Positions 4,626 through 57,900 of a DNA stretch of 64,000 nt are shown one piece after another (position 1 is the stretch's first letter; each line of letters begins with the position of its first letter). The stretch is from a virus. Its lineage: Duplodnaviria > Caudoviricetes. The notes under the pieces are model-generated. The model worked only from the letters and a program-made list of their open reading frames with translations, had not been told where the DNA came from and searched no databases. Location of the stretch: positions 66,978 through 130,977 of the IMG/VR virus record IMGVR_UViG_3300005546_000001. The stretch is one strand, 5' to 3'. The translations under genes were made by a program, and so were the position numbers.

Positions 4626-4947
4626 AATTTATTCTCGGTTGCGGGAGTCCCGATTCTCCGACCCGCCCTTGTCCCATCTCCTGATTTGGAGCCCAGAGTT
4701 TCCTCCGGTTAGCCGAGGACCGTGCGATTTTATTTATCGTTCTTCTCTACACTAAACCGAGAAATTCAAAATCGGTGCGGATGTTTGCTAAAGAGGATCG
4801 CCCAGTACACCCGCACTAAAACTGGTTTTCATTGAAATTAGCGCAGCTCAGGTCGCTTGATGCTTCGTTTGTGTAGTCCAGGTCTGCATTTAGGCACTTG
4901 CTTTCTACAACCCCAACCGCATCACCCTCAATGACTGCGCTACTAAA

Positions 4948-50210: not shown

Positions 50211-50795
50211 CTAATACAGTTTAAAAACTGGGAGATTGATTTTTGGGCGATACCCTGTTGCGGGGAGCGCGACAGAGTTTCTTTCGAGACCACTGCCTTG
50301 GTATAGTGCGATTCCAATGCAAACGGGAGGAGCCTCATAATTATCAGTAGACTTTCTTCGAGTGGTCTCGTCAGCACTAGCCCAATAATTAACACAATCA
50401 GCCCATTTTTTATTAATTGTGGAAATAATGTAATCTACCGTGTTTCCAGAACCAATAAAATCGTCGATAATTATGTATTTCTTGGCATCAAAATCACCTT
50501 CCAGCAGTCGATAGGCATGCGAGTTTCTCAAGTCGCTTTCTTTTCTCACGTGAATCATCGTTTTATTCAGATTCATGGCTAGAACCGGAGCCACCAACGC
50601 CCCACTAAAGCCAGAAAAAGCAAAGGAATCAAATTCCATGTGGCATAATTCCCTTTTTGCACTCTTTATAATACTCACAACTGTTTCCGGTGTGTAAGCA
50701 GCATGAGAATGGCACGCCCTGATTTTCATGTTTACCTCAATGTGTTTCCTTTTCCTCTTTGCCGGTGGGCTTCCTTGAGCATCCGGCGTTTCCAT
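50211..50795 (-). CDS. Type I phosphoribosyltransferase-like protein (paralog 1)
   Basis: GFSGALVAP, HVRKE, IIIDDFIGSGNT PRPP-binding loop. Likely start is MKIRACH near 50729. Confidence 0.8.
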   Translation of the reverse strand: METPDAQGSPPAKRKRKHIEVNMKIRACHSHAAYTPETVVSIIKSAKRELCHMEFDSFAFSGFSGALVAPVLAMNLNKTMIHVRKESDLRNSHAYRLLEGDFDAKKYIIIDDFIGSGNTVDYIISTINKKWADCVNYWASADETTRRKSTDNYEAPPVCIGIALYQGSGLERNSVALPATGYRPKINLPVFKLY

Positions 50796-51827: not shown

Positions 51828-52241
51828 CTAGAGTTTAATAACTGGAACGTTGAACTGTTTTGACCAGTTTCTTACAGCAACCTTGTGCTGATAGAGCGCG
51901 ATTGCGGCACATTCTATACCGCCATTAATTTTGCTTGTTATTTCCCGGACTATTTCTACACAAGTATCTCCGCTTTCTATAAAGTCGTCAATAATGACGT
52001 ACCTTTTTGCACCAAAGTCTCCCTCAACAGAACGCATTGAATGTGAGGATTCTTTTCGAACCATAATCAGAGTTTTCTTCATCTCGCGTGCTAAGACTGA
52101 TGCAATCAGCGCTCCGCTCATTCCACGAAATGCAAAACTGTCAAACTCTATGCCAGCGAGCTTCATTCTGGCGCTTTCGATGATTTTTTCGATTCTTTTT
52201 GGTGTGAATGCATATTTGGAGTGTGCCACTACGAGTTTCAT
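51828..52241 (-). CDS. Type I phosphoribosyltransferase-like protein (paralog 2)
   Basis: RGMSGALIA, MVRKE, VIIDDFIESGDT. Confidence 0.8.
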   Translation of the reverse strand: MKLVVAHSKYAFTPKRIEKIIESARMKLAGIEFDSFAFRGMSGALIASVLAREMKKTLIMVRKESSHSMRSVEGDFGAKRYVIIDDFIESGDTCVEIVREITSKINGGIECAAIALYQHKVAVRNWSKQFNVPVIKL

Positions 52242-52938: not shown

Positions 52939-52970
52939 AAAAAGAAAAGGCGAGCCAATGAAGACTCGCC
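52939..52970 (-). terminator. Intrinsic terminator after the 582-aa gene
   Basis: GGCGAGTC-TTCATT-GGCTCGCC followed by TTTTCTTTTT. Confidence 0.85.
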
Positions 52971-52996
52971 GTTGAAACTGAAATGAAAAACCCTGC

Positions 52997-54745
52997 TTAA
53001 GCTAGCAAACTCAGTAAGGAATCTTTTACTGGATTGCTCAAATCCACGTCCGGATTTTCTGTTACTATCTCAAATCCAGACGCTATGAGTAGTTCTTTTA
53101 GCGGAAGGAATGTATTGAGATTTTCTATCACGTAGTCTCTGTATTTCTCTGTCGTACTTGTGCCAGATACTCTGCCACGTCCACTTCTGAATTTAGCAAG
53201 AAAGAAAGATTCTTTAGTCAAAACTCCGAGAATATTTTCTCTTGATTCGCTAGTGAAATCTACAGAGAAAATAATGTTGTTTGGATCAACCATGTAGTTC
53301 CGACCCATTCTCTTGATGTCCTCTTGAGCAAAGAACATCTTGAATTTGGCTCCTACCTCTTGACCAGAGTAGATGTTTGCTTTTACAATACCGGGCGTAA
53401 ATCCGCTCTTTGCATATAAAAGTTCCACCGCCTCCGGGTCAGCAGATGTCATGTCACCGCTGTACACAATTGAATTAGCGGAATTTGTATAAGCCGCATT
53501 CCAACCAAATTTGCGCCCATCTAGTGAGAAGAAACTCAAATCGATGTCTCGGGCACCTTCATTCCCTCTCCAGTGAATTCCTATGATACTGTTAGACCTT
53601 CTTAGTGGGATAGAGGAGCCTAGCGGGAAATTTCCTATGAAGGATTTTTCAGAAGTTGGAACTGTCAGATTGATATTCTCTGGCAATTTAATTCTACAAG
53701 CTTTTGCTGAAATGCTCTGAACCAGTGATTCATAAATTAGAGCGCCCTGTTGATGTAAATTCTTTTGATTAACGCTTGCATTCCCTTCTTGTATAAATAA
53801 TTTTCCGTTTCTGATTCCAAACGCTCTATACCCGCATTGATTCAGCCTTACTAAAATAGTCTGAAGCAAAGAGACTTTCCTGAAATTGTTTAACTCTGGA
53901 AGCCTACGGACAAATTCCTTATCAATATCTCTGTTTAGAACATTCGTCCAGTAGCTTTCTGGCATTGGCCTGTGATTTGTAACTGCCAATCTTCGCAGTC
54001 TGTTAATTACTGGCCTGTCGGCGCCAGCGCATCGCATTGCTAAAAACAACGGTTTAAATCTTAAAAAAACTTCCGCCAACCGCTCCATTCCAAATGCAAA
54101 TATCAGCTTTCTCACAGGCTCTTTACTTGCCCTGATCGCGGCGATAGTTTCTCTGTCCTTGATTAGAAGAGTCTTGCCAGTCTTCAAGAACACAAGAAAC
54201 CTGACAAATTCAGTTGTGTTACGTGGAAATGTTCCGGCAGCCTTACAAAAATGCATTAAGGCTTCGCGATTCTTTATAGAATCAACGTCCACGTCAGCGC
54301 CGCCAAGAACTACAATGATGTCCTTGATTGTGGCTTCAGCCAAAGCCGCTCCGCTCTGCAACATTCCCAGTGCTCTACTCTGAGCCTCTTCTAACGTAAT
54401 TTCTTCCAGAATCTTGATTGAAGATGATTTCAATTCTTTGACTTTTGGGTTTTCGTTTGGAAGGTAAACTTCTCCCTCAAAATTCGTTCCGTATGTTGAA
54501 GCATAATGGAAGATTTGATCAATAAACAATTCAAACCTGTTTTTTGACGTGACATCCTTCCAAGTTTTGTAGAAGGTAGCGTTGTGGTTTACCTTCTTCT
54601 CTTTCAGCCATTCTACAACAGCCAACGAGCAAAGCTGTGGCGGTACTACATACCCTACCTTCAACGCTAGTTTGTTGGTATTGTAAAAATCACGCGGTGA
54701 TTCAGTAGCCAGTGCTTTGCCAAACAATCTCAGAACTTCAATCAT
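52997..54745 (-). CDS. 582-aa protein: large helical N-terminal region plus TerD-like C-terminal domain
   Basis: NATFYKTW, DQIFHYASTYG, FLRFKPLFLA, INRLRRLA; C-terminal GIHW..DIDLS..GWN..YSGDMTSA..AVE is TerD-like. AAGGAGA RBS. Confidence 0.65.
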   Translation of the reverse strand: MIEVLRLFGKALATESPRDFYNTNKLALKVGYVVPPQLCSLAVVEWLKEKKVNHNATFYKTWKDVTSKNRFELFIDQIFHYASTYGTNFEGEVYLPNENPKVKELKSSSIKILEEITLEEAQSRALGMLQSGAALAEATIKDIIVVLGGADVDVDSIKNREALMHFCKAAGTFPRNTTEFVRFLVFLKTGKTLLIKDRETIAAIRASKEPVRKLIFAFGMERLAEVFLRFKPLFLAMRCAGADRPVINRLRRLAVTNHRPMPESYWTNVLNRDIDKEFVRRLPELNNFRKVSLLQTILVRLNQCGYRAFGIRNGKLFIQEGNASVNQKNLHQQGALIYESLVQSISAKACRIKLPENINLTVPTSEKSFIGNFPLGSSIPLRRSNSIIGIHWRGNEGARDIDLSFFSLDGRKFGWNAAYTNSANSIVYSGDMTSADPEAVELLYAKSGFTPGIVKANIYSGQEVGAKFKMFFAQEDIKRMGRNYMVDPNNIIFSVDFTSESRENILGVLTKESFFLAKFRSGRGRVSGTSTTEKYRDYVIENLNTFLPLKELLIASGFEIVTENPDVDLSNPVKDSLLSLLA

Positions 54746-54765
54746 TTCAATCTCCTTTTGAGATA

Positions 54766-54952
54766 GCCGCGAGATGTAATTTTAGGCAAAGCCTTTCGGC
54801 TTTTAATTTAGGAACATCTTTTGCGGCGAAAACTTGCTTGCGGGAAGTATTTTCATTAAAAGTGATTTTTTGTTAGGAACTTCCTATGCAAGCAATCTTT
54901 AAGCGGCGGAAGGTAAATTTTTCCAATAAAAGTTAGGAACCTTCTATGCCGC
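54766..54952 (-). repeat. Three tandem structured RNA repeat units in the 5' leader of the 582-aa gene
   Basis: Units at 54903-54952, 54834-54895 and 54766-54827: stem-AWA-5 bp stem-UUCCUA-variable loop-UA-stem'-C-stem', with compensatory changes in both stems. Confidence 0.88.
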
Positions 54953-54960
54953 AATAAACC

Positions 54961-54989
54961 AGAATACCACACTTGGCATTGTTTGTCAA
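54961..54989 (-). promoter_or_regulatory. Sigma70-type promoter for the repeat leader and 582-aa gene
   Basis: TTGACA (54989-54984), 17 nt, TGG-TATTCT (extended -10). Predicted +1 falls at the base of the first repeat. Confidence 0.75.
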
Positions 54990-57900
54990 GCCCGCCCAAT
55001 CCAAACCGGCGAGCATTTTTTGCAGCCAACATTCCCACAGTCACGCCCACCATGAACCTTTCGAGCTACCAAAACAAACTCCCCCTTGATTTTCACGGGG
55101 ATTAGCATAACAATCCGTGCTTCAGTTGTTTTATTAGCACCCTTGTTTTTCTTCAGGAAACGCTTCGATTTTTTGTTCTTCCCTGCATCGCGCCAAGATG
55201 CATATAGAGCTTTTTGAGCTTCCTTCTTCGCTCTCTTTGCCTTCAACCGCTTTTCTTTTTGTGCTGCTCTTGCCCGCTTTCCCATGATTAGTTCCTTATT
55301 CTGTATCCAATTCCGCCAAAGCTGAGCGGATTTGTAGAATTGCTTCTTTCTTTTCTTTTTGATGGTCGGTCATACAACGATCATCAAGACAGTTTACTCC
55401 GTCACTGTATGCGGAGAACAGTGCGTCAAAAGCTTTTACTAAATTATCCATATTTTCTCCCTTAGTAAATATTGATTTCTACTGTTTCATCTGTTTTGAT
55501 GAAGCGACAGCCCTCCCAGCCTGCTGCTACTTCGAGCCGATAACGGGACATAATAATAACTGGGGCACCGAACATAATCAAAAATCGTGCATCCAGATTA
55601 TTATCTGCTACCTTATAAACACCCTCTTCCTTTTTAATTTCTTCAAAAGAAAGAGTTTTTTGTTCAACTTTCTTTGCGTTAATTTTTCCCTTGATGTTCA
55701 TGTTTTCTCCTAATCGGGAACTATTTGTCCGTCAACTAAACTTGCTGTTACTCCCTGAATGTGCCAACAATGACTCTGCTGAACCCAAATCTTGCCGTCG
55801 GCAGTTCTGACGATTCCTTTACCGAGTGCTTGGACTATTGGAGACGGTTTCGGTTGTAAAAACTTTTCGAGAATCATATTTCCTCCTTATTCCAAATGCC
55901 AATCACCGTTACTGATAACCAACTTCTGCGGCACAACTCGGCACCAATCTTGTAGGACGTTGCGGTGGCGCTTATCATCCAGACTTAGTACGCATGCTCT
56001 CCCGACAAAGTTTTCAACACCCATGCTAGTCACTATTGCGTAAAAACCGGCGTCATTTGGATGCTCAACGTGAACAACATCAAAAACTCGCATGACCCCC
56101 CCTATTTCAGCCCAGCGCGAATATCAAGAAGTTCTTTAAACGCTCTTTTAATTTCCGCTGTCATAATTTTATTGAACTCGTCGTGCCCCCAGCACTGATC
56201 AACAACAATCGCTGATAGATTTTCAATTGCGTCGTCAACGTTTATCCGAGCAGCATCTAAGCAAGCATTTGCCTTAGTTGTAACTGACATATTGTCCCCC
56301 TAAAGTTCCGTCTCAGTTTCGAGATCGTACTTGAAAACCTCTTGGATGGCGCGGACTGCAGATTGGTAGTGACTCTGAAAATGGGCTGGTGCCGTTAAAA
56401 GTAACAATCTTCTTTTATATTGCTCACCGTTACTTAAACGACGAGTCCGCACAACTTGAAACGGATTTACGTCCGCGTTATCGTAAACTATTGCTCGAAT
56501 CCGACACGTGGTGTACTCTTTGAGACACATATCTCCATTATCGGGGCCACGCAGCGCCACCAAAATGTCAATTAGCTGGCGAGTAGTTTCACACTTGTCC
56601 ACCAGCTCTTTAATTGCTTCTTGTAGTGTTTTCATTTTTTGTTCTCCTCCCAATTTTGTACAACGTAGTAACCCACCCCAACCAGCCACGCCAGAGTTAG
56701 TATGACGGTTGGAATCCAGAGCGGTGTTGTAGGGTTGTACCCGTTTACCACGATCAGCCTCGCCCAAAGCGAGGTCAAAAGTATCGTGGCAATTGTCCAG
56801 AGTACAGATTTCATTTTATCTCCTTCTAAGCTGTTTTTAGCTTTGGTGGATATCTGAGTGTGCCCATGAGTTCAAAAACGCTTATTTCAAGTGCGATTCT
56901 TTTTGCTATGTTGGGATCAAATAGTTCGCTCAGCGGGAATTCTTTTTCAATGCCACCTTCCAAACCAACTACCCCACTTTCTGAAGAATTTCCAATTCCC
57001 ATGAATTCATAAATTAGTTTATCAGTTGGGTGAGCAACAGTTTGTCCGAAGCTGAAAACACCGCCCGCCTCAATCTGTGCTCTTCGTACTGCTTCGTCGA
57101 TGATTTCTTTGTTTGTCATTGTTAACCTCAAATTTATTGGGTGGTTAGGAAACAATACAAAACACATTTTCATTCCTAAATGGAAGGATTTCTGTATAAA
57201 ATTCAGATGCAGGAGACTTGCTGTAGTTCATGAGTTCAGTCAGCGAGCCAAGTTTGTCATTCAGGGCACGACCGAACCCACCACGGCAGTTTTTAGTCGT
57301 TCTGAAAAACTCGATTTGTTGCATCAACGGAGCGTCAATTTGAAGTTTTCTCATATGCCCATCTCCTTCTTCCATCTAGCCATCACCCCCCGCGCTGTAG
57401 CTTCATTCAAAATGTCCTCACTTGAAGCGGCGCGAATGGCTTCGGTTATCACAGCGAGTTCGTCACCATCAGCCCGAAAAACAACTACCTTTCCAAAAAC
57501 TCTCGGAAACTTCTCTCCGATGTGCCATGCTTCTGGCTCAGCATTCGCTGGACTTGTTGTGATGTAGAGCATGATTTTTCCTCACTTACATGGAACCATA
57601 GCGCCCGCACAGACAAGTTTTATGTAGCGAAGCACATTATACAATTCCCCGCCGTGTCCGCATTTGCAGCGCGGGCGTACTATCCAAACACTTGCTTGGA
57701 ATTACAAACTGTTCGTGTTTCATTCAGTCTCTCCATTTATTGCTGAGCCGTTCACCGAGTTTGTAAAACTTATCATCGGGAAAGTTTGTAGGATTGTTGT
57801 AGAATCCTCTAGCAATGTTTCTCGCTTCTTCTGGACTAGTAACTAAATTAATGTCCAACGCTTGCCCCGCAAAAAACTCCCCACTAAAATAATTTTTTCC

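What the first reader, a model, noticed from the sequence alone, without database searches (positions are those of the whole stretch)
52939..54989. Self-contained module: promoter, three covarying RNA repeats, 582-aa TerD-like-domain protein, terminator
Seen in sequence: a TTGACA-17-TATTCT promoter fires directly into three 50-62 nt units. R1 is GCGGC AUA GAAGG UUCCUA..UA CCUUC C GCCGC, R2 is UUGCUUGC AUA GGAAG UUCCUA..UA CUUCC C GCAAGCAA, and R3 is GCCGC AAA AGAUG UUCCUA..UA CAUCU C GCGGC. Stem sequences differ between units but pairing is always kept. The AWA/C internal loop and G-UUCCUA...UA-C are invariant, and the apical loops are unrelated. An RBS, the single large gene and a terminator follow. 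This covariation is the signature of an RNA fold under selection, not a DNA repeat. Inference: the repeats are ligands of the encoded protein, either as autoregulatory sites or as processed small RNAs with a constant handle and variable loop forming a ribonucleoprotein, loosely reminiscent of Ro60/Y RNA. I cannot match this motif to a named RNA family.
Basis: partly seen in the sequence, partly recalled or inferred. Interest (0 to 1): 0.92.

Follow-up and report, generated by a model that had tools for sequence, protein, structure and literature searches.

The report
Small folded RNAs with partner protein
A 131-kb phage carries three small folded RNAs with one conserved "handle" directly in front of an unstudied 582-residue protein, and the same RNA-plus-protein pair recurs in dozens of phages and bacteria, so it looks like an undescribed RNA-protein particle built on the plan of Ro60 and its Y RNAs.

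Summary

**The RNA.** The units belong to a real RNA family: stem P1, a 3-nt/1-nt internal loop (AWA opposite C), stem P2, an invariant UUCCU...UA, then a variable module. Ten of 11 pairs show compensatory changes.
- A covariance model found 87 units next to homologous genes. All lie on the gene's strand, and none lies elsewhere in the loci or in the phage's own genome.
- Rfam 15 has no match for the window's units.

**The protein.** Pfam, PHROGs and PADLOC give no hit.
- The C-terminal domain has the TerD fold (Z 10.5 and 9.6).
- The N-terminal helical domain matches nothing, and Ro60/TROVE was not detected (hhalign below 1%, Z 3.9).
- No other gene is a conserved neighbour.

**Relatives.** In relatives the variable module is sometimes a permuted tRNA look-alike. 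One unit of the cultured cyanophage S-CRM01 matches Rfam YrlA below threshold (E 2.7e-6).

**Reading.** The most likely reading (0.6) is handle-plus-cargo small RNAs bound by the encoded protein. This would be a Y-RNA-like particle with a non-TROVE partner, possibly also repressing its own mRNA. Binding, expression and processing are untested.

This scan noted the same pair at least 8 times before on other DNA. I found no paper describing it.

The parts
54961..54989 (-). sigma-70-type promoter: -35 TTGACA (54989-54984), 17-nt spacer with TG, -10 TATTCT (54966-54961). The predicted start falls at or within a few nt of the base of R1's outer stem.
   Evidence: 10 of 12 matches; sequence. Promoters placed 8-12 nt before the first unit are also seen in L018 and L025.
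54903..54952 (-). RNA unit R1: P1 5 bp, AUA/C internal loop, P2 5 bp plus U-A, UUCCUA, 26-nt loop in which GGAA can pair with UUCC.
   Evidence: R1 model 52.8 bits, E 7e-13; constrained fold.
54834..54895 (-). RNA unit R2: P1 8 bp, AUA/C internal loop, P2 5 bp, UUCCUA, 32-nt A/U-rich loop.
   Evidence: 52.5 bits, E 8.6e-13.
54766..54827 (-). RNA unit R3: P1 5 bp, AAA/C internal loop, P2 5 bp, UUCCUA, and a loop holding a 6-bp hairpin capped by GAAA. It ends 20 nt before the start codon.
   Evidence: 46.4 bits, E 7.5e-11.
54752..54757 (-). ribosome-binding site AAGGAG, 6 nt before the ATG.
   Evidence: read.
52997..54745 (-). gene for the 582-aa partner protein (P0001), a member of a large family with no Pfam model.
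   Evidence: More than 1200 relatives; 1329 clusters at 50% identity.
53696..54745 (-). N-terminal helical domain, about residues 1-350. It has many conserved basic residues (R182, K196, R229, K231, R251, R312, K315) and no detectable known fold.
   Evidence: models (pLDDT 79 and 82); fold searches; conserved columns.
53129..53602 (-). C-terminal TerD-fold beta-sandwich, residues 382-539, with invariant D402, W415, S429-G430-D431 and E441.
   Evidence: 2qz7_B Z 10.5 (rmsd 2.8 A, 125 aligned) and 2kxt Z 9.6 (3.4 A, 139 aligned), well above all other rows. Invariant columns.
52939..52970 (-). intrinsic terminator: 8-bp stem (6 G-C pairs), 6-nt loop and a T-rich tail, 27 nt after the stop codon.

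Best explanation
The three units are small structured RNAs that partner the protein encoded just downstream.

**Proposed mechanism**
- Transcription starts at the base of R1 and runs through R1-R3 into the gene. This step is inferred.
- Each unit has a constant handle: the closing stem P1, the AWA/C internal loop, the 5-6-bp stem P2, and the invariant UUCCU and UA that flank the loop.
- The handle is the proposed docking site for the protein, probably on its basic helical N-domain.
- The variable loop is a 'cargo' left exposed. In this phage the cargoes are short A/U-rich loops and one GAAA hairpin. In relatives they include permuted tRNA look-alikes of the YrlA type.
- The particle would therefore work like Ro60 with Y RNAs: an RNA that gates or tethers a protein acting on other RNAs, most likely in tRNA or RNA turnover during infection.
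- The TerD domain stands where Ro60 has its vWA domain. It may add control by Ca2+ or by a nucleotide-derived ligand.
- The last unit ends 20 nt before the start codon, so the same binding could also repress the protein's own translation.

**Shown:** the RNA fold, its conservation, and its exclusive genomic linkage to this protein family.

**Inferred:** binding, processing, and the cellular target.
For: **The RNA fold is selected.**
- 93% of cells are paired, 10 of 11 pairs show compensatory change, and slid controls give 35-51%.
- RNAalifold finds the same structure.
- The leader folds with z = -5.

**Linkage to the protein is exclusive.**
- Model R1 found 54 units in 305 kb of 33 viral sources. 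All lie on the gene's strand and within about 900 nt of the gene.
- In the complete 131-kb genome only the three units match.
- Units lie beside the gene in 12-14 of 15 loci from prokaryote assemblies and in 3 of 3 cultured phages.
- Motif-first sampling of IMG/VR gave 14 loci. Seven have the protein adjacent, 3 have it elsewhere on the record, and 4 are small fragments.
- Two of the 5 protein loci without an adjacent unit have units elsewhere on the record. The other three records are only 15-22% complete.
- No other protein-coding neighbour is conserved. The bacterial copies sit among housekeeping genes.

**The units behave as separate RNAs rather than as a leader only.**
- Copy number runs from 1 to 7.
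- Units lie downstream of the gene in L002, L003, L023, L031, L047, L049 and S-CRM01, and 1.3 kb away in Phass-1.
- In S-CRM01 the array abuts tRNA genes.
- A U-tract follows P1 in 15 of 46 units.

**The design resembles Y RNA.**
- Long units carry T-arm, closed acceptor-like stem and D-arm in the permuted order of YrlA.
- L062:2454-2568 aligns to all 114 positions of Rfam YrlA at 35.9 bits, E 2.7e-6.
- 12 of 42 loci lie in tRNA gene clusters.

**The protein fits the role.** It has a helical domain with conserved basic residues followed by a metal- or ligand-binding type of domain.
Against: - There are no data on expression, processing or binding.
- The N-domain shows no detectable relation to TROVE. 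Pfam finds nothing in 79 members, hhalign gives 0.15-0.42%, and VIA gives Z 3.9 over 65 residues to Ro60.
- The window's three units have no tRNA-like module and no Rfam match even at E 10.
- In this window the units lie in the 5' UTR with no terminator or U-tract between them and the gene. In 17 of 23 loci with upstream units, the last unit ends 11-39 nt before the start codon. A purely cis-acting role would fit these facts equally well.
- This phage has no RtcB and no Rnl2-type ligase (PF09414), and its 27 tRNA genes lie 70 kb away. A link to RNA repair is therefore not visible here.
Confidence: 0.6

Rival explanations
1. The units are only a cis-acting leader. They would be operator sites in the 5' UTR through which the protein, or another factor, represses translation or stabilises its own mRNA. 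No free small RNA would exist.
For: - In the window, the promoter, the three units, the ribosome-binding site and the gene form one transcription unit. No terminator lies in between.
- The last unit ends 11-39 nt before the start codon in 17 of 23 loci with upstream units.
- UUCCU could pair with AGGAG-type ribosome-binding sites (read from the sequence).
Against: - Units lie downstream of the gene, on both sides of it, more than 600 nt upstream (L005), 1.3 kb downstream (Phass-1), or elsewhere on the contig.
- There are up to 7 copies with different cargo modules, some of them tRNA-like.
- In some loci P1 plus a U-tract would end the transcript before the gene.
- A leader role and a free small-RNA role are not mutually exclusive.
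Confidence: 0.2
2. A type III toxin-antitoxin-like module. The protein would be a toxin and would be held in check by the tandem RNA repeats transcribed ahead of it, as in ToxIN.
For: The layout of promoter, tandem structured RNA repeats, then one gene resembles ToxI-ToxN.
Against: - The units are not near-identical direct repeats. Their stems differ and covary.
- Many loci have a single unit, or have the units after the gene.
- No terminator separates the repeats from the gene here.
- PADLOC gives no match and no nuclease-like domain is found.
- The module sits in lytic-type phage genomes inside tRNA clusters, and in bacterial chromosomes among housekeeping genes.
Confidence: 0.05
3. The units are substrates or processing signals rather than partners. 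Examples would be RNAs that the protein modifies or cleaves, or punctuation for maturing polycistronic tRNA-like transcripts. There would be no stable complex.
For: - Units are packed 6-7 nt apart, like tRNA arrays.
- They abut tRNA genes in S-CRM01 and L018.
- Some carry tRNA-like modules.
Against: - No catalytic domain is recognisable in the protein.
- The own genome keeps the units 70 kb from its tRNA cluster.
- The handle is conserved far more tightly than simple punctuation would need.
Confidence: 0.12
4. The repeats act as DNA: iterons, recombination sites or binding sites for a DNA-binding protein.
For: They are repeated and lie in an intergenic region.
Against: - What is conserved is pairing, not sequence. 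There are 149 cells with a change on both sides, against 42 in shuffles.
- All 87 units have the orientation of the gene. Double-stranded DNA sites would not require either feature.
Confidence: 0.02

Closest known systems
Bacterial and phage Ro60 (Rsr; TROVE + vWA) with Y RNAs, especially YrlA (Rfam RF02553; Chen et al. 2014, PMC4201824)
   Same: - One or more small RNAs are encoded within a few kb of the protein gene and on its strand.
- The 5' and 3' ends close a stem that carries a conserved asymmetric internal loop.
- A variable module lies beyond that stem. In some relatives it is a permuted tRNA mimic (T arm, closed acceptor-like stem, D arm), and one matches the YrlA model over its full length.
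- The protein is a helical domain followed by a domain of a metal-binding type.
- The pair occurs in phages and in bacteria, often beside tRNA genes.
   Different: - The handle sequence differs: AWA/C loop plus UUCCU...UA, not GNCGAAN0-1G.
- The window's units are 50-62 nt, against 80-130 nt, and have no tRNA-like part and no Rfam hit.
- The protein shows no detectable TROVE or vWA_Ro60 domain and ends in a TerD fold.
- One bacterium (G001) has both a canonical Ro60 and this protein at separate loci.
- No binding data exist.
TerD-family proteins of tellurite-resistance (ter) operons (Pfam PF02342; PDB 2qz7, 2kxt)
   Same: - The C-terminal 160 residues adopt the TerD beta-sandwich (Z 10.5 and 9.6).
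- Conserved D-x-D-x-S and S-G-D-M-T motifs sit where I recall TerD having its Ca2+-binding motifs. This rests on my own knowledge and was not tested.
   Different: - The Pfam TerD model matches none of 79 family members.
- The domain is fused to a 350-residue helical domain.
- No terB, terC or telA genes are nearby.
- The conserved partner is an RNA.
Type III toxin-antitoxin systems (ToxIN)
   Same: A promoter, then tandem structured RNA units, then a single protein gene.
   Different: - The units diverge in sequence and the copy number can be one.
- The units can follow the gene.
- No terminator lies between the units and the gene in this window.
- The protein is unrelated, and PADLOC gives no hit.

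Membership tests
Y RNA / YrlA (Rfam RF00019, RF02553) | Matches the Rfam covariance model at its gathering score | tested here: not met
   The window's units give no Y_RNA or YrlA match even at E 10. One unit of a relative (S-CRM01, L062:2454-2568) reaches 35.9 bits against a gathering score of 69, E 2.7e-6.
Y RNA / YrlA (Rfam RF00019, RF02553) | Stem closed by the 5' and 3' ends that carries the Ro60 site (GNCGAAN0-1G in bacteria; PMC4201824) | tested here: not met
   A closing stem with an asymmetric internal loop is present. The conserved sequence, however, is C-AWA-NNNNG-UUCCU...UA-CNNNN-C-G, with no GNCGAA.
Y RNA / YrlA (Rfam RF00019, RF02553) | tRNA-like module with T and D arms | tested here: not met
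   Absent from R1-R3. Present in long units of relatives: L003:5406-5493, L018:4971-5101 and L062:2448-2569.
Y RNA / YrlA (Rfam RF00019, RF02553) | Encoded within about 4 kb of a Ro60 (TROVE) gene, on the same strand | tested here: not met
   The complete own genome has no TROVE match. The adjacent same-strand gene belongs to a different family.
Y RNA / YrlA (Rfam RF00019, RF02553) | Bound by Ro60 in cells | not testable with these tools
   Needs immunoprecipitation or gel-shift assays.
Ro60 / TROVE proteins (PF05731 + PF25045) | TROVE domain detectable by sequence or profile | tested here: not met
   Pfam finds nothing in P0001 or in 79 diverse members at E up to 1. hhalign against a 16-sequence Ro60 alignment gives probability 0.15-0.42%.
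Ro60 / TROVE proteins (PF05731 + PF25045) | Ring of HEAT-like repeats (TROVE fold) | tested here: inconclusive
   The N-domain model (pLDDT 82) gives Ro60 9nf8_A at Z 3.9 with 65 residues aligned, and 1yvp_A at Foldseek E 0.8. Both are at noise level. Ro60 is not among the top 50 of the wide search. A weak match does not prove a different fold.
Ro60 / TROVE proteins (PF05731 + PF25045) | C-terminal vWA domain with a MIDAS site | tested here: not met
   The C-terminal domain is a TerD-type beta-sandwich.
TerD family (PF02342) | Match to the Pfam TerD model | tested here: not met
   No match in P0001 or in 79 members. The model also finds nothing in five bacterial genomes that carry homologues.
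TerD family (PF02342) | TerD beta-sandwich fold | tested here: met
   2qz7_B Z 10.5 (rmsd 2.8 A, 125 aligned) and 2kxt Z 9.6 (139 aligned, 19% identity). The next row is at Z 7.2 and covers a different region.
TerD family (PF02342) | Stand-alone protein of about 190 aa inside a ter operon | tested here: not met
   The domain is fused to a 350-aa helical domain. No ter genes are among the neighbours, and no protein neighbour is conserved.
TerD family (PF02342) | Ca2+-binding residues | not tested
   Motif-level resemblance only (D400-x-D402, S429-G430-D431, E441 invariant). No residue-level structural alignment was available.
Type III toxin-antitoxin (ToxIN-like) | Near-identical tandem direct repeats, then a terminator, then a small endoribonuclease toxin | tested here: not met
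   The stems differ between units. No terminator lies between R3 and the gene. PADLOC gives no hit. Many relatives have a single unit.

The most novel reading that the evidence does not exclude
This is a second, TROVE-independent class of Ro/Y-type ribonucleoprotein, widespread in large phages and in several bacterial phyla.
- A constant RNA handle would dock on a protein of a new helical fold.
- Interchangeable cargo loops would act as mimics or tethers. They range from bare A/U-rich loops to full tRNA look-alikes.
- The cargoes could decoy host enzymes that cut or modify tRNA, or recruit RNA-turnover enzymes during infection.
- The TerD domain would make the particle responsive to Ca2+ or to a nucleotide-derived signal.
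Probability: 0.3. Interest if true: 0.9.

Novelty: new variant of a known kind. Interest (0 to 1): 0.8.

Why it matters
- If the protein binds these RNAs, this is a large family of RNA-protein particles with no entry in Rfam or Pfam. I found no paper on it in the open literature searched. The family has more than 1300 protein clusters at 50% identity.
- The family would show that the Y-RNA design, a protein-binding handle plus a tRNA-like or other cargo, is not tied to Ro60.
- It would assign a first function to one of the more common 'hypothetical' genes of large phages. These include the cultured cyanophages S-CRM01 and S-CBWM1, where the gene sits in the middle of the tRNA cluster.
- It would give a nucleic-acid context to the poorly understood TerD fold.
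- It also corrects annotation. Short ORFs called over the units are probably not genes, for example g173c of S-CRM01 and one CDS of Phass-1.

Tried and rejected
**Family libraries.** Pfam, PHROGs and PADLOC on P0001 gave nothing. Pfam on 79 members and on longer family members with extra N-terminal parts also gave nothing.

**Solved structures, by sequence profile.** Nothing was found.

**Fold searches.**
- Foldseek against the PDB with the whole model and with the N-domain gave no match at E 0.001 or better.
- The wide VIA search of the N-domain gave only short helical-hairpin matches (best Z 6.5, ribosomal protein L29-like, residues 272-347), which I treat as a common arrangement.
- The Atlas structure library was not available. 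The Atlas feature search returned only the protein's own family.

**Ro60 homology.** It was tested with a purpose-built Ro60 alignment. The best local alignment is a shared N-x-TFY motif near the N-terminus, and it is not significant.

**RNA-repair link in the own genome.** There is no RtcB and no PF09414 ligase. The PF09511 search is uninformative because its controls did not ring.

**Guide-RNA idea.** The three loops show no complementarity to the phage's own genome beyond shuffled loops (11-12 nt against a mean of 11).

**A third helix.** Pairing between UUCCU and a downstream AGGAA-like run is enriched: 15 of 44 units against 4.7 +/- 1.8 in shuffles. It is absent from two thirds of units, so it is not part of the core.

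**Conserved neighbours.** None was found. The two PRTase-CE genes downstream in the window do not recur in other loci.

**Remote phage relatives.** tblastn with three family members against GenBank phages found only S-CRM01, S-CBWM1 and Phass-1. The fold-level relatives in Campylobacter and Lactobacillus phages could not be checked for the RNA.

**Other.**
- Public sequencing runs could not be searched for this window.
It was repeated with the 25-sequence alignment.
Full report
**What is there.** All elements lie on the minus strand.
- A promoter (TTGACA, 17 nt, TATTCT; 54989-54961) is followed after about 8 nt by three hairpin units: R1 54952-54903, R2 54895-54834 and R3 54827-54766. The units are spaced 6-7 nt apart.
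- Next come the ribosome-binding site AAGGAG (54757-54752) and a 582-aa ORF (54745-52997).
- An intrinsic terminator (52970-52949 plus a T run) closes the module.
- The 217-nt leader folds into the three hairpins at -64.1 kcal/mol, against -42.7 +/- 4.3 for shuffles (z -5.0).
- The window is the right-hand half of a complete 130,977-bp phage genome with direct terminal repeats.

**The RNA is a family under selection.** I collected 40 viral loci that encode relatives of the protein. The motif C-AWA-NNNNG-UUCCU...UA-CNNNN-C-G was visible beside most of them.
- A MAFFT alignment of 44 distinct units shows two helices. They are separated by a 3-nt/1-nt internal loop, and the residues G-UUCCU, UA-C and the bulged C are invariant.
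- 93% of cells are paired, against 35-51% when the 3' partners are slid by 1-3 columns.
- Ten of 11 pairs carry changes on both sides. There are 149 such cells against 42 +/- 7 in shuffles.
- RNAalifold predicts the same structure without being told it, and adds the invariant U-A pair.
- One caveat applies. My regular expression required 4 of 5 P2 pairs, so the paired percentage is somewhat inflated. The variety of pair types at each position is not affected.
- The apical part runs from 26 to 49 nt in these units and to about 100 nt in others. It is A-rich (45% A) and cannot be aligned.

**The RNA goes with the protein and with nothing else.**
- A covariance model of the handle (R1) found 54 units in 305 kb of 33 non-redundant viral sources. 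Every one is on the gene's strand and within about 900 nt of the gene. 28 of the 33 sources have at least one.
- In the phage's own complete genome the three units are the only matches.
- Fifteen loci from prokaryote genome assemblies were examined. They include Verrucomicrobiota, Planctomycetota, Gammaproteobacteria, Bacteroidales, Saccharibacteria and others, and one is a closed 10.5-Mb chromosome. Twelve have clear units and two have weak ones.
- Three GenBank phages were also examined: the cultured cyanophages S-CRM01 and S-CBWM1, and the human-gut phage Phass-1, which has no recorded host. They have 7, 2 and 6 units.
- In the reverse direction, a protein-blind pattern scan of IMG/VR filtered with R1 gave 14 loci. 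Seven have the protein adjacent. Three have it elsewhere on the same record. The other four lie on short fragments or a short held stretch where absence says nothing.
- Of the five protein loci without an adjacent unit, the two most complete records have units elsewhere.
- All-against-all comparison of flanking ORFs found no other conserved neighbour. The bacterial copies sit among housekeeping genes such as rhomboid, phosphoglycerate mutase, an epimerase and FabD.

The module is therefore two components: one protein and one or more RNAs.

**The protein.** P0001 has more than 1200 relatives in the word-indexed search and 1329 clusters at 50% identity. All are unnamed. Pfam, PHROGs and PADLOC find nothing, in P0001 or in 79 diverse members.
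- The AlphaFold model (pLDDT 79) has a helical N-terminal part of about 350 residues and a beta-rich C-terminal part.
- The C-terminal part (382-539) matches TerD structures at Z 10.5 (2qz7_B; 2.8 A, 125 residues) and 9.6 (2kxt; 139 residues, 19% identity). These stand clear of all other rows.
- The N-domain, folded alone (pLDDT 82), matches nothing convincingly in the PDB by Foldseek or by the wide VIA search. In the ESM Atlas it matches only its own family.
- Full-length fold relatives exist in Campylobacter phages IBB35 and CP21 and in Lactobacillus phage LpeD.

**Is it a Ro60?** I tested this directly.
- TROVE is absent from the own genome.
- Ro60 chains score Z 3.9 over 65 residues, and Foldseek gives E 0.8.
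- A profile of 16 bacterial Ro60 proteins, built from a genuine TROVE + vWA_Ro60 gene found in one of the bacteria that also carries this family, aligns with probability below 0.5%.
- On this evidence the protein is not a detectable Ro60, and some earlier notes of this scan that call it 'Ro60-like' or 'ring-shaped' are not borne out here. A very remote relationship cannot be excluded.

**Why the Y-RNA comparison still holds.** The resemblance is on the RNA side.
- Units with long inserts carry tRNA parts in a permuted order: a T-arm, then a closed acceptor-like hairpin, then a D-arm. The handle takes the place of the anticodon stem (L003:5406-5493, L018:4971-5101, L062:2448-2569).
- The S-CRM01 unit aligns to all 114 positions of Rfam's YrlA model at 35.9 bits (E 2.7e-6; gathering score 69).
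- YrlA is the tRNA-mimicking Y RNA that accompanies bacterial and phage Ro60 on the same strand within 4 kb (PMC4201824).
- About 29% of loci (12 of 42) lie inside tRNA gene clusters on the same strand. In S-CRM01 the first unit starts one base after a tRNA-Glu gene.
- The window's own units are minimal versions. They have the handle plus a short loop and, in R3, a GAAA-capped hairpin, with no tRNA-like part. This phage's 27 tRNA genes lie 70 kb away.

**Free RNAs, a leader, or both?** Several points favour separate RNAs:
- The copy number is variable (1-7).
- Units lie after the gene or on both sides of it (L002, L003, L023, L031, L047, L049, S-CRM01), far from it (L005, Phass-1), or elsewhere on the contig.
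- Promoters are placed so that transcription begins at the foot of the first P1 (window, L018, L025).
- A U-tract follows P1 in 15 of 46 units, about three times my estimate of chance, so those units would terminate as small transcripts.

Other points favour a cis role:
- In the window no unit has a U-tract and no terminator precedes the gene.
- In 17 of 23 loci the last upstream unit ends 11-39 nt before the start codon.

I therefore rank 'RNP-forming small RNAs, possibly doubling as an autoregulatory operator' first (0.6) and 'leader only' second (0.2). A type III toxin-antitoxin reading, a substrate or processing-signal reading, and a DNA-repeat reading fit the data poorly. The reasons are given under the rival explanations.

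**What remains inferred.** Nothing here shows binding, expression or processing. The role of the invariant UUCCU is open. It pairs with a downstream AGGAA-like run in only a third of units, so it is more likely a single-stranded recognition element. The loops show no above-chance complementarity to the phage genome. The role of the TerD domain is a guess, based on published proposals that TerD binds Ca2+ or nucleotide derivatives (PMC7159879).

**Novelty.** Rfam 15 holds no family for the handle and Pfam none for the protein. Seven full-text searches found no paper that describes the pair. A 2021 survey of jumbo phages mentions TROVE proteins and TerD separately, not this fusion. A 2026 preprint on bacterial tRNA mimics treats other RNA families. 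This scan has noted the same RNA-protein pair at least eight times on other DNA, and my independent tests agree with those notes on the RNA and on the linkage. I file it as a new variant of a known kind: a Y-RNA-like system with a different handle and a non-TROVE partner.

Noticed in passing
window 51828-52241 (-) and 50211-50795 (-): Two paralogous genes (41% identical) with the Pfam PRTase-CE / phosphoribosyltransferase domain lie 0.75-2.8 kb downstream of the TerD-domain gene on the same strand. Ter systems pair TerD with PRTases, but these genes do not recur beside homologues in other loci.
   Followed up: partly
window 54856-55053 (-); L062:2623-2769 (S-CRM01 g173c); L064:6049-6348 (Phass-1 WIC39680.1): Short ORFs or annotated 'hypothetical protein' genes overlap the conserved RNA units. 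They are probably not genes.
   Followed up: partly
own genome G000:C1:46496-51838 (outside the window): The phage carries a cluster of 27 tRNA genes, about 70 kb from the module. ARAGORN finds none inside the window.
   Followed up: no
L062:2348-2800 and 4660-4713 (Synechococcus phage S-CRM01, NC_015569.1): In this cultured cyanophage the homologue g174 sits in the middle of the tRNA cluster. It is flanked by 6 units upstream and 1 downstream. One unit is a YrlA-like permuted tRNA mimic. This makes it a ready experimental system.
   Followed up: yes
L030:4732-4986: A tmRNA gene lies directly downstream of the homologue in this viral contig, and six tRNA genes lie upstream.
   Followed up: no
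L059:811-2448 (-) and L054:3815-5680 (+), the same closed 10.5-Mb Limisphaerales chromosome: One bacterium has both a canonical Ro60 (TROVE + vWA_Ro60) and a member of this family, 2.5 Mb apart. The two systems therefore coexist rather than replace each other in this case.
   Followed up: partly
P0001 residues 53-60; Ro60 alignment A5 around residue 45-52: The single best local profile alignment between the two families is a shared Asn-x-Thr-Phe-Tyr motif near the N-terminus. It is not statistically significant.
   Followed up: no
L037:85-297, L038:2880-2990, L039:2897-3000: In three related phages a further conserved stretch with a CCAAC/GUUGG hairpin lies between the last unit and the gene. 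In L026, L028 and L040 a long G+C-rich insert lies between two units.
   Followed up: no
L014:2891-2965, L017, L022:2806-2880, L026:2882-2960: In these loci the unit's long G+C-rich outer stem is followed by six U's. The unit itself therefore looks like an intrinsic terminator just ahead of the gene. This could mean attenuation control.
   Followed up: partly
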